Part shown: positions 39,201-42,200 of the stretch, piece after piece
Layout of the letters: every line of letters begins with the position of its first letter
Position numbering within the stretch: the stretch's first letter is position 1
Assembly: GCF_013167455.1 (NCBI RefSeq)
Contig: NZ_CP038328.1
Direction: 5' to 3' (one strand)
Length of the DNA: 64,000 nucleotides
Origin: Escherichia coli O157:H7
Lineage (GTDB): Bacteria; Pseudomonadota; Gammaproteobacteria; Enterobacterales; Enterobacteriaceae
Position numbers: made by a program

Positions 39201-42200
39201 TTCTACGCCGACAGGCCAGGTGTTAGAGGTGTAGCTAAAACAGGCGACGCCAACGCCGCGGCGTAAATTGCCTTGCTGGTTCTGGCACTCTGCACGGCGT
39301 TTTTCCCATTCAAAGATTTTCCGGCCTTTTTCAAGACACTCCGGCAACCCTGCGCTGTAAATACGTTTGCCCGTGAGCGGATTAGCATCTCCTTCGCGTG
39401 AGGCGTTGCGTAAACGAATTTCAACAGGATCAATACCTAACGCTGTCGCGGCGTCATCAAGCATAGACTCAACGGCAAATACGACTTGTGGCGCGCCATA
39501 ACCACGCATCGCACCAGCCGAGGGGAGGTTGGTATAGCAGGTCTTTGAACTGTAAGCGTAGGCACAACGAGGATAAAGGTAAGCGACTTTATTTCCCCCT
39601 GCAGAAGCGATGGAGTGCCCGTGAGATACATAAGCGCCGGTGTTAGACAGAACATCCAGACTATAACCTTTCAATGTTCCGTCGCGGTTCACGCCCATTT
39701 GCCCGTCAATAGTAAAAGCGTGGCGGGTACGGGTTGCGAGGAAACACTCTTCACGGCTAAGGGAAACTTTCACCGGAATGCCGCCAAGCTTGCTGGTCAG
39801 GAATGCCGCCATTGGCTCTTCCAGTACATCCTGTTTATTACCAAAACCGCCACCGACAAATGTTTTGATGACTCGTACGCATGACCAGGGAATATCCAGC
39901 GCCTGACCAACCACGCGGCGAACAATGTGCGGGATCTGGGTGCTGGAAACGATGGTAATTCGCGAGTCATCCTCCATCCACGCCAGCGATGTTACGCTTT
40001 CCATGTGACAATGTTGAATAACGGGGGTCTGATAGTGCCCCTGTACCTGGTAGTCGGCGGCATCGATTGTTTGTTGGACATTGCCCGTCGACATCGTGCT
40101 TTGTTTCAGTAAATTGCCGCCGTTATGGATTGGTGCAGCGTCCTCTGCCAGCGCCGCTTCTGGCGTGGTGATAACGGGTAATTCTTCCCACTCAATGCTG
40201 ACCAATTGCGCCGCTTTTTCTGCCGTGAGTTCATCGCGGGCCACGACGATGGCAACGGCGTCACCATGATGACGAACATGGCGAGTTAGCAGTGCGCGAT
40301 CGGCGGTATCGCGCTTGTTTTCGTCAAGTGTCCATGCATGCCCAGCTGTAGCGAATGGGATATCAGGCACATCTTCCCAGGTAAAAATCGCCAGTACGCC
40401 TGGTAAACTTCTGGCTTGTTCATCATTAATACTTACGGCATAACCATGTGCGATAGGGCTACGTACATATTTCGCATAACACATGCCCGCCATAACATAA
40501 TCGTCAGTATATCGTGCCCGCCCGGTGACCTTAGCAATGGCATCAACGCGCATGCATGATTCACCCGTAGCGGTTGCTTCCCGCGCTTCCATAGAAATCC
40601 CCTCGATTTGAACATTTGGTTCTTATGGCAAAGATTTAGTCTAAGCAGGCAAGATTTACGCCAGAAACGGCGATAAGCGTTAAGGGAGGAAGGAAGTGTG
40701 ATGATGTTAAAAAAACACAGATATGATACGAAACAGGACCCTGAATAGGGGTAGTGATACGTATCAATATGAGTGGCGATAAAATCAATGTGATAAATTA
40801 GGATTATTACGCATCAGGATGGGAAATAGGGTAAAAAAGTCAGGAACTTCGATACCTCTACAGTGAATATTTTGCTGATGATACTTCCCTTTGCCAAATG
40901 AAATTAACCTCTTTCTCTATTACATCGTTTTTCCAGAAGCAAGAGATTGGGTATCAAGAGGCTGGCTGCTATGATATGGCGTCTTGTTTTTTAAGCGAGG
41001 AAAGATTTTGAGTGCGGGACGCCTGAATAAAAAATCTCTGGGTATCGTGATGTTGTTATCGGTTGGACTGCTTTTGGCGGGCTGTTCGGGTAGCAAATCA
41101 TCCGATACAGGAACGTATTCCGGCTCCGTTTACACCGTGAAACGGGGGGATACGCTATATCGTATTTCGCGCACCACGGGAACCAGCGTAAAAGAGCTGG
41201 CGCGACTGAACGGCATTTCCCCCCCTTACACCATTGAAGTTGGTCAGAAACTAAAACTGGGTGGGGCGAAAAGTAGCAGTAGTACACGTAAATCAACCGC
41301 CAAATCAACGACCAAAACCGCATCGGTTACACCGTCATCAGCGGTACCGAAATCTTCCTGGCCGCCAGTAGGGCAACGTTGTTGGTTATGGCCAACGACA
41401 GGGAAAGTTATCATGCCGTATTCGACAGCAGATGGCGGCAATAAAGGGATTGATATCTCAGCTCCACGGGGTACACCTATTTACGCCGCGGGTGCAGGAA
41501 AGGTGGTGTATGTGGGCAACCAGCTGCGTGGCTACGGTAATCTCATCATGATTAAACACAGTGAAGATTACATTACGGCTTACGCCCATAATGACACGAT
41601 GCTGGTAAATAATGGGCAAAGCGTGAAGGCTGGGCAAAAAATCGCCACCATGGGGAGCACGGATGCGGCATCTGTTCGCCTGCATTTCCAGATTCGTTAC
41701 CGTGCAACGGCAATTGATCCGCTACGTTACTTGCCGCCTCAGGGCAGCAAGCCAAAATGCTGATGGCGAATTAATCAGCAGTCAGCAGCGCGGCACTTGC
41801 TAAGAAGAGCGTAAGGTTTATAATGCCTTACGCATCTCGAAGCGGGCGTAGTTCAATGGTAGAACGAGAGCTTCCCAAGCTCTATACGAGGGTTCGATTC
41901 CCTTCGCCCGCTCCAATTTATCTTCACCTCATCAATCTGCCATTTTTGCTGTATCTGATTTTCTATATTATCTTAATTCAATCGCTTCAGACTTTTCGCA
42001 ATCTCTGTAACACTCCCCCATTTTTTTGTAAATAAAAAGCGTTTACGCAATGCAATCCTTTTGTAACAACCCAGGTAAAATACCTTATTTTCAAGTTGTT
42101 AAATAAGTGGTTATCTACGCTTTTAACAAACGATTGATGGAATATTTTATGAAAGGGAAATCTGCATTAACTCTTCTGCTCGCTGGTATATTTTCGTGCG

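What the first reader, a model, noticed from the sequence alone, without database searches (positions are those of the whole stretch)
40626..40660. Tandem direct repeat in the xdhA promoter region
GGCAAAGATTTA (40627-40638) and GGCAAGATTTA (40648-40658) are near-identical direct repeats about 21 bp apart; the second overlaps the candidate sigma54 promoter. They could be a regulator binding site or a local duplication.
Basis: seen in the sequence. Interest (0 to 1): 0.3.

Follow-up and report, generated by a model that had tools for sequence, protein, structure and literature searches.

The report
Chance repeat at known xdhA promoter
The two near-identical 11-12 base words are really there, but one is the core of the already known sigma-54 promoter of the E. 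coli xanthine dehydrogenase gene xdhA. The other is an unconserved look-alike at the transcription start, so the repeat itself is ordinary.

Summary
The window is E. coli O157:H7. xdhA lies on the minus strand (38295-40592), divergent from actS/ygeR.

GGCAAAGATTTA (40627-40638) and GGCAAGATTTA (40648-40658) are present as described. They match at 11/11 bases with one extra base and sit 20-21 bp apart. They are not tandem, and Tandem Repeats Finder (TRF) reports nothing.

**What each copy is.**
- On the coding strand, the upstream copy TAAATCTTGCC is the spacer plus -12 element of CTGGCGTAAATCTTGCC (40664-40648). This is the xdhA sigma-54 site found by ChIP-seq in K-12 and listed as confirmed in EcoCyc.
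- The downstream copy TAAATCTTTGCC covers -1 to +11 of the predicted transcript.

**Conservation.**
- Across 19 enterobacterial sequences the -24/-12 bases are invariant.
- The downstream copy exists only in Escherichia. Its first half falls in an alignment gap in the other genera.
- Other Escherichia species match only 8-9/11. The near-perfect repeat arose in E. coli through three point changes.

**Chance and rivals.**
- Comparable short-range repeats occur 14 times in this window, against about 4 in shuffles.
- The 5' UTR shows no RNA structure, and there is no Rfam hit.
- The conserved cis elements lie elsewhere: paired ATCA-N3-TGAT palindromes (40763-40794) and a TCACA block 39 nt upstream of the -24 GG.

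**Verdict.** This is a known promoter plus a coincidental look-alike. Interest is low.

The parts
40648..40664 (-). Sigma-54 (-24/-12) promoter of xdhABC, CTGGCGTAAATCTTGCC. The GG is at 40662-40661 and the GC at 40650-40649.
   Evidence: It is one of only three exact matches to TGGC-N7-TTGC in the window. It is identical to K-12 sigma-54 ChIP-seq site OS29 for xdhA, which is EcoCyc-confirmed. TGGCGTA and TTGCCT are invariant in 19 enterobacterial sequences. The site is recognisable out to Morganella, Hafnia, Edwardsiella and Aeromonas.
40627..40638 (-). Downstream copy TAAATCTTTGCC, covering about -1 to +11 relative to the predicted transcription start (40637). I read it as a lineage-specific look-alike with no independent function.
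   Evidence: The TSS follows the Bonocora rule of 19 bp downstream of the motif centre (40656), giving 40637. This reproduces their 84-bp distance to the K-12 start codon at 40553. The copy is not conserved beyond Escherichia, and its first half lies in a 5-column gap in the other genera. Other genera match their own promoter core at only 6-9/11, which is background.
40593..40637 (-). Predicted 45-nt 5' UTR of xdhA, with the Shine-Dalgarno GAGGGGA 7 nt before ATG 40592.
   Evidence: Read from the sequence. The RNA fold is no more stable than shuffles (z = +1.05, 178 of 200 shuffles fold at least as well). No Rfam match at E <= 1.
40763..40794 (.). Two ATCA-N3-TGAT palindromes 21-22 bp apart. 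This is the candidate upstream activator sequence for the sigma-54 activator YgeV/IsrR.
   Evidence: It is the only match in the window to ATCANNNTGA-N8-18-TCANNNTGAT, with 0 expected. The sites are conserved at about 133 and 111 nt upstream of the -24 GG in all Enterobacteriaceae sampled. The word TATCANNNTGA occurs 13 times in the window against 2.7 expected, including upstream of the ygeW and ygfK sigma-54 promoters. Binding by YgeV is inferred, not shown.
40694..40716 (-). Conserved T-run plus CATCACAnTT block between the candidate activator site and the promoter. It may be a DNA-bending or co-regulator site.
   Evidence: TCAC[AG] lies exactly 39-40 nt upstream of the -24 GG in 22 of 22 species, from Escherichia to Aeromonas. 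The identity of the bound factor was not tested.
38295..40592 (-). xdhA coding sequence (765-aa form), the gene served by the promoter.
   Evidence: From the ORF list and RefSeq annotation of the 100%-identical O157:H7 record.

Best explanation
The two words are not a functional pair.

**Upstream copy.** In the direction of xdhA transcription, the upstream copy (window 40658-40648, minus strand) is the spacer and -12 element of the known sigma-54 promoter CTGGCGTAAATCTTGCC. RNA polymerase with sigma-54 binds here in a closed complex. It needs an AAA+ activator to open the DNA. The activator is most likely YgeV/IsrR, which is encoded just beyond xdhC. It most likely binds the conserved ATCA-N3-TGAT pair about 110-135 bp upstream of the -24 GG, with a conserved TCACA/T-run block in between.

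**Downstream copy.** The downstream copy (40638-40627) lies at -1 to +11 of the predicted transcript. It resembles the upstream copy by coincidence. Three point substitutions in the E. coli lineage sharpened an 8-9/11 resemblance into 11/11.

**Shown:** the sequence; its identity to the ChIP-seq sigma-54 site; the conservation pattern; the lack of RNA structure.

**Inferred:** the TSS position; YgeV as the activator and its binding site; the absence of any function for the downstream copy.
For: - **Locus identity.** The window is 100% identical to E. coli O157:H7 with xdhA/actS annotated. ygeV is annotated as carrying a sigma-54 interaction domain, next to xdhC.
- **Known promoter.** The 17-mer equals K-12 sigma-54 ChIP-seq site OS29 for xdhA (FAT 11, PSSM 10.9, EcoCyc-confirmed). 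The predicted TSS at 40637 reproduces the paper's 84-bp distance to the K-12 start.
- **Conservation across genera.** Alignment A1 has 19 sequences. TGGCGTA and TTGCCT are invariant, while the spacer positions of the upstream copy vary (AATC, ATTC, GTTA, AATT, AAAA, CTTC). The TAAAT half of the downstream copy sits in a gap in 11 of 19 sequences.
- **Match to own promoter core.**
  - E. coli K-12-like and O157: 11/11.
  - B2-like E. coli and E69: 10.
  - SCPM, E. whittamii and E. albertii: 9.
  - Citrobacter sp. MGH106: 8.
  - Other genera: 6-9.
  - Shuffle background: mostly 7-8.
- **Within E. coli.** 4401 of 5326 genomes carry the exact 45-nt segment. 921 differ at 1-2 positions. The two B2-like genomes that were read have TAATTC in the upstream copy.
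- **Frequency of such repeats.** 14 in this window against 3.9 in shuffles.
- **No alternative element.** No 5' UTR structure, no Rfam hit, no TRF array.
- **Not a regulon feature.** The other two sigma-54 promoters of the same gene cluster (ygeW, ygfK) have no such downstream echo (read by eye).
- **Conserved cis elements lie elsewhere**.
Against: - The 11/11 match with offset 20-21 bp (two helical turns) never arose in 2000 shuffles of the local 60 nt, so locally it is not trivial.
- The exact pair is fixed in about 83% of E. coli genomes that have the region.
- Two of the three substitutions that created it each changed a base to the one present in the other copy. This could hint at selection or templated correction.
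- The TTGCC half of the downstream copy, and the ATAAGAACC that follows it, are conserved within Escherichia. They have a loose counterpart (ATTG[ACG]C ... GAAC) in several other genera. Some constraint on the early transcribed region therefore cannot be excluded.
- No experiment here tests binding or expression.
Confidence: 0.82

Rival explanations
1. The two copies are a bipartite operator. A regulator binds direct repeats on the same DNA face (20-21 bp apart), overlapping the -12 element and the start site. It thereby represses or modulates the sigma-54 promoter in E. coli specifically.
For: The spacing is about two helical turns, and the copies overlap -19..-9 and -1..+11, so a bound protein would clash with the polymerase. 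The pair is fixed in most E. coli. The transcriptomics compendium of PMC10602906 reports that the YgeV gene set is most active in cpxR or baeR knockouts exposed to ethanol. The copies contain GTAAA/CTAAA, which is reminiscent of the CpxR half-site (from my own knowledge of the consensus GTAAA-N5-GTAAA).
Against: - The pair is not conserved in other Escherichia species or in other genera that keep the promoter, the candidate activator sites and the TCACA block in rigid register.
- The positions that make the copies alike are spacer positions that vary freely.
- The CpxR consensus needs 10-bp spacing. Ten bp after GTAAA the sequence is CCTGC, so the consensus is not met.
- The 11-mer is not a recurrent motif elsewhere in the regulon.
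- No paper found reports such a site.
Confidence: 0.06
2. The pair is the remnant of a local ~21-bp duplication of the promoter core (replication slippage). Alternatively, it results from templated 'repeat correction' between two nearby quasi-repeats.
For: The period is about 21 bp. Two lineage-specific substitutions each converted a base to the one in the other copy (upstream TAATTC to TAAATC; downstream TTAATC to TAAATC). Escherichia and Citrobacter sp. R56 carry 5 extra nucleotides here relative to other genera.
Against: - Similarity does not extend into the flanks, and the -24 element is not duplicated (TTAGAC vs CTGGCG).
- The copies are less alike in the outgroups and earlier-branching lineages, which is the opposite of a decaying duplication.
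- TRF finds nothing.
- The apparent convergence is subject to ascertainment bias, because the site was picked for being near-perfect.
Confidence: 0.08
3. The downstream copy works at the RNA level. As the 5' end of the xdhA mRNA, it pairs with the Shine-Dalgarno region (AAAUCUUU with GGGGAUUU) to limit translation.
For: By eye, 5'-AAAUCUUU can pair with GGGGAUUU just upstream of the start codon (5 Watson-Crick and 3 G-U pairs).
Against: The minimum-free-energy and centroid structures do not use this pairing. The UTR folds no better than shuffles (z = +1.05). The A allele in other Escherichia breaks the extended pairing, and other genera lack the segment. No Rfam family matches.
Confidence: 0.03

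Closest known systems
PxdhA, the sigma-54 (RpoN) -24/-12 promoter of xdhABC in E. coli K-12 (Bonocora et al. 2015, PMC4591121, site OS29; EcoCyc-confirmed)
   Same: It has the identical 17-mer CTGGCGTAAATCTTGCC, the same orientation towards xdhA and the same distance to the K-12 start codon.
   Different: Nothing differs for the promoter itself. The published description does not mention the downstream look-alike, and my analysis gives no reason to add it as a promoter element.
Canonical enhancer-dependent sigma-54 promoter architecture (upstream activator sites for a bacterial enhancer-binding protein, an intervening bending site such as IHF, and -24/-12 elements), e.g. glnAp2, glnHp2, nifH
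   Same: - The -24/-12 core.
- Paired palindromic sites about 110-135 bp upstream of the GG.
- A rigidly positioned conserved block in between.
- An activator gene (ygeV) in the cluster.
   Different: Binding of YgeV to the ATCA-N3-TGAT pair is not demonstrated anywhere I could find. The intermediate block does not fit the IHF consensus WATCAANNNNTTR when read by eye. The direct repeat under review plays no part in this architecture.
Direct-repeat operators of OmpR/PhoB-type response regulators (e.g. CpxR box GTAAA-N5-GTAAA)
   Same: Two direct repeats containing (G/C)TAAA near a promoter. A reported link exists between cpxR/baeR knockouts and the YgeV gene set.
   Different: The spacing is 20-21 bp rather than 10-11. 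There is no conservation across species, and no evidence of binding.

Membership tests
Sigma-54 (-24/-12) promoter | GG and GC dinucleotides separated by 10 nt within TGGCAC-N5-TTGC[AT] | tested here: met
   TGGCGTAAATCTTGC at 40649-40663 (minus strand) is an exact match to TGGC-N7-TTGC, one of 3 in the window. These bases are invariant in 19 species.
Sigma-54 (-24/-12) promoter | Occupancy by sigma-54 holoenzyme in vivo | not testable with these tools
   From the literature only. A ChIP-seq peak (FAT 11) lies on the identical 17-mer in K-12, marked experimentally confirmed in EcoCyc (PMC4591121).
Sigma-54 (-24/-12) promoter | A cognate AAA+ enhancer-binding protein and upstream activator sites | tested here: inconclusive
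   ygeV (sigma-54 interaction domain) is adjacent. A conserved paired palindrome lies at 40763-40794. Binding and activation are not demonstrated.
Tandem repeat / local duplication | Head-to-tail copies detectable as an array, with similarity extending over the whole unit | tested here: not met
   TRF finds nothing at minimum score 30. 9 nt of unrelated sequence lie between the copies, and the flanks do not match.
Tandem repeat / local duplication | Copies at least as similar in related lineages (shared ancestry of the duplication) | tested here: not met
   E. coli scores 11/11, other Escherichia-group sequences 8-9/11, and other genera score at background.
Regulator operator made of two direct repeats | Both half-sites conserved in orthologous promoters that keep the rest of the regulatory architecture | tested here: not met
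   The promoter, candidate activator sites and TCACA block are conserved in register. The downstream copy is not, and the upstream copy varies at its non-promoter positions.
Regulator operator made of two direct repeats | Protein binding to the repeats | not testable with these tools
   This needs EMSA or footprinting. No report was found in the papers searched.
CpxR box | GTAAA-N5-GTAAA (10-bp periodicity; consensus recalled from my own knowledge) | tested here: not met
   GTAAA is at 40659-40655 (minus strand). Ten bp downstream the sequence is CCTGC. The second (C)TAAA is 20 bp away.
Structured 5' UTR element / known RNA family | Stable or conserved secondary structure, or an Rfam match | tested here: not met
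   Fold z-score +1.05. No Rfam match at E <= 1.

The most novel reading that the evidence does not exclude
In E. coli sensu stricto the start-site copy has been recruited as a lineage-specific control element. It could be a second '-12-like' TTGCC word or a repressor half-site on the same DNA face as the real -12 element. Either would hold sigma-54 polymerase or a repressor at the start site and tune xdhABC expression differently from other Escherichia. The three substitutions that perfected the repeat would then be adaptive.
Probability: 0.05. Interest if true: 0.4.

Novelty: already known. Interest (0 to 1): 0.08.

Why it matters
As a repeat, it matters little. What functions at these coordinates is the known sigma-54 promoter of xdhABC, part of the E. 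coli purine and uric-acid catabolic cluster.

The useful outcome is negative. The repeat should not be annotated as an operator or a duplication.

The comparative work did show where the conserved control sequences of this poorly characterised promoter lie:
- a paired ATCA-N3-TGAT site;
- a rigidly spaced TCACA block.

These are better targets for anyone studying YgeV/IsrR regulation of purine catabolism in gut bacteria.

Tried and rejected
- **Tandem repeat.** TRF and the ungapped repeat finder do not recover the pair.
- **Second sigma-54 promoter using the downstream TTGCC.** No GG lies 12 nt upstream; the sequence there is GA (by eye).
- **Sigma-54 promoter on the + strand towards actS.** AGGCAAGATTTACGCC has GG-N10-GC but ACGC instead of TTGC. 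Bonocora et al. assign the site to the xdhA orientation. Not pursued further.
- **5' UTR hairpin sequestering the Shine-Dalgarno sequence.** Not supported by folding.
- **Known RNA family.** None found.
- **The 11-mer as a dispersed regulon motif.** Only coding-region near-matches: 6 within one mismatch against 1.6 expected. None lies at the ygeW or ygfK promoters.
- **CpxR box.** The spacing is wrong.
- **Fetching K-12 by the paper's coordinates.** This landed in ygeP/ygeQ because the genome versions differ. A laboratory strain and O26:H11 were used instead.
- **Literature on YgeV/IsrR binding sites.** None found.

Full report
**Context.** The 701 bases around the finding are 100% identical to E. 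coli O157:H7 strain PV15-279 and are present in 5411 of 5426 complete E. coli genomes. RefSeq annotation gives the following layout:
- xdhA on the minus strand of the window, 38295-40592 (765-aa form);
- xdhB and xdhC after it;
- ygeV, annotated as carrying a sigma-54 interaction domain, just beyond xdhC;
- actS (ygeR) diverging on the plus strand from a TTG at 41008.

The finding therefore lies in the 415-bp xdhA-actS intergenic region, 35-66 bp upstream of the xdhA start codon, and has to be read on the minus strand.

**Observation.** GGCAAAGATTTA (40627-40638) and GGCAAGATTTA (40648-40658) are there as stated. They match at 11 of 11 bases with one extra base, and 9 unrelated nucleotides separate them. 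They are not tandem. TRF reports no array and the ungapped repeat finder does not list them. On the coding strand they read TAAATCTTGCC (upstream) and TAAATCTTTGCC (downstream). The flanks do not extend the similarity.

**Chance.**
- Shuffling the 60 nt downstream of the promoter never produced an 11/11 gapped match to the promoter core in 2000 trials. The typical best match was 7-8.
- That test is post hoc.
- A blind scan of the whole window for repeats of the same class (at least 11 matched bases, at most one single-base indel, offset 12-40) finds 14, nine of them longer than this one. Markov-1 shuffles give a mean of 3.9.
- A repeat of this kind somewhere in a 64-kb window is expected. The real genome also carries more of them than random sequence does.

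**What the upstream copy is.** The minus-strand 17-mer at 40664-40648, CTGGCGTAAATCTTGCC, is one of only three exact matches to TGGC-N7-TTGC in the window. It is identical to sigma-54 ChIP-seq site OS29 of Bonocora et al. 2015: peak FAT 11, PSSM 10.9, downstream gene xdhA. [quoted passage not shown] The same paper notes that xdhA was one of five microarray-predicted sigma-54 targets it could confirm. PMC10602906 places xdhABC in a putative YgeV regulon.

**What the downstream copy is.** I used the paper's rule that the TSS lies 19 bp downstream of the motif centre. The motif centre is 40656, so the TSS is 40637. This reproduces the published 84-bp distance to the K-12 start codon at 40553. The downstream copy (40638-40627) therefore spans -1 to +11, which is the initial transcribed sequence of a 45-nt leader.
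- It has no GG 12 nt upstream, so it is not a second sigma-54 promoter.
- The leader folds no better than shuffled sequence (z = +1.05).
- No Rfam family matches the region.

A scan of one genome per species with XdhA returned 62 loci. I extracted the upstream regions and aligned 19 enterobacterial sequences (alignment A1).
- TGGCGTA and TTGCCT are invariant.
- The promoter is still recognisable in Morganella, Hafnia, Edwardsiella and Aeromonas.
- The spacer letters that belong to the repeat vary freely (AATC, ATTC, GTTA, AATT, AAAA, CTTC).
- The TAAAT half of the downstream copy lies in a 5-column gap in all genera other than Escherichia and Citrobacter sp. R56.

Scoring each species' downstream 60 nt against its own promoter core gives:

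| Group | Match out of 11 |
|---|---|
| E. coli K-12-like and O157 | 11 |
| B2-like E. coli (ECONIH2) and strain E69 | 10 |
| E. coli SCPM, E. whittamii, E. albertii | 9 |
| Citrobacter sp. MGH106 | 8 |
| All other genera | 6-9 (the shuffle background) |

**Within E. coli.** The exact 45-nt segment carrying both copies is in 4401 of 5326 genomes. Another 921 differ at one or two positions. The B2-like genomes I read have TAATTC in the upstream copy.

**Polarity of the changes.** Outgroups show the ancestral Escherichia state was TAATTCTTGCC upstream and T(T/C)AATCATTGCC downstream. Three point substitutions in the E. coli lineage produced the near-perfect repeat. A decaying duplication would show the opposite trend. 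A conserved operator would not be confined to one species while everything else in the promoter stays fixed.

**Where the conserved regulatory sequence lies.** Right-anchoring the upstream regions on the promoter shows two features.
- *Paired palindromes.* Two ATCA-N3-TGAT palindromes sit 21-22 bp apart at window 40763-40794. This is the only match in the window to the paired pattern, with none in shuffles. They are conserved at about 133 and 111 nt upstream of the -24 GG in every member of the Enterobacteriaceae examined.
- *Shared word in the cluster.* TATCANNNTGA occurs 13 times in the window against 2.7 expected. Its locations include the regions upstream of the ygeW and ygfK sigma-54 promoters of the same cluster.
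- *TCACA block.* A T-run plus CATCACAnTT block has its TCAC[AG] exactly 39-40 nt upstream of the GG in 22 of 22 species, including Aeromonas.

This is the classic enhancer-dependent layout. I infer, but have not shown, that the palindromes are the YgeV/IsrR sites. I found no published YgeV site.

**Mechanism.**
- Sigma-54 holoenzyme sits on 40664-40648 in a closed complex. This is shown by ChIP-seq on the identical K-12 sequence.
- An AAA+ activator bound upstream, probably YgeV, contacts it by DNA looping and drives opening. This step is inferred.
- Transcription starts near 40637 (predicted) and reads through the downstream copy as ordinary leader sequence.

I put 0.82 on the repeat having no function of its own. 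The rivals are:

| Rival | Confidence |
|---|---|
| E. coli-specific bipartite operator | 0.06 |
| Duplication or templated repeat correction | 0.08 |
| RNA pairing with the Shine-Dalgarno region | 0.03 |

**Caveats.**
- The TTGCC half of the downstream copy and the following ATAAGAACC are conserved within Escherichia. They have a loose counterpart in several genera, so weak constraint on the early transcribed region is possible.
- Two of the three substitutions changed a base to that of the other copy. I attribute this to ascertainment, because the site was picked for being near-perfect.
- No binding or expression data were generated here.

**Verdict.** What is at these coordinates is already known. 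Interest is low.

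Noticed in passing
window 40763-40794 (also 34917-34956 and 25276-25288): Two ATCA-N3-TGAT palindromes 21-22 bp apart, conserved about 133 and 111 nt upstream of the xdhA -24 GG across Enterobacteriaceae. 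The word TATCANNNTGA is enriched in the window (13 vs 2.7 expected) and also sits upstream of the ygeW and ygfK sigma-54 promoters. This is a candidate YgeV/IsrR binding motif, and I found no published site for that regulator.
   Followed up: partly
window 40694-40716 (minus strand): A T-run plus CATCACAnTT block whose TCAC[AG] lies exactly 39-40 nt upstream of the -24 GG in 22 of 22 species, from Escherichia to Aeromonas. The position is typical of an IHF or bending site, but the sequence fits the IHF consensus poorly and looks like a CRP right half-site. The factor is unknown.
   Followed up: partly
window 40553-40592 (minus strand): The xdhA start codon. The upstream ATG at 40592 (765 aa, used by RefSeq) with Shine-Dalgarno GAGGGGA and the 13 following codons is conserved across genera. 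The distance given in PMC4591121 puts the K-12 start at the ATG at 40553, 13 codons further in. That codon is CTG or TTG in Trabulsiella, Buttiauxella and Morganella. The shorter K-12 annotation is probably wrong.
   Followed up: partly
window 34957-35000 (ygeV-ygeW intergenic): Direct repeat TAGAAATGTGATA / TAGAAAGTGATAA 31 bp apart. On the other strand these are repeated TATCAC-type words like those upstream of xdhA.
   Followed up: no
window 40724-40766: Imperfect inverted repeat TGATACGAAACAGGACCC / GGGTAGTGATACGTATCA, including the perfect palindrome TGATACGTATCA, just promoter-proximal to the conserved palindromes. This stretch differs in E. whittamii and E. albertii, so it looks specific to E. 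coli.
   Followed up: partly
window 40991-41007 vs 40647-40694: The actS ribosome-binding region (TTAAGCGAGGAAAGATT) shares short words with the xdhA promoter region: TTAAGGGAGGAAGGA at 40680-40694 and AGGCAAGATT at 40647-40656. These are most likely chance purine-rich matches.
   Followed up: no
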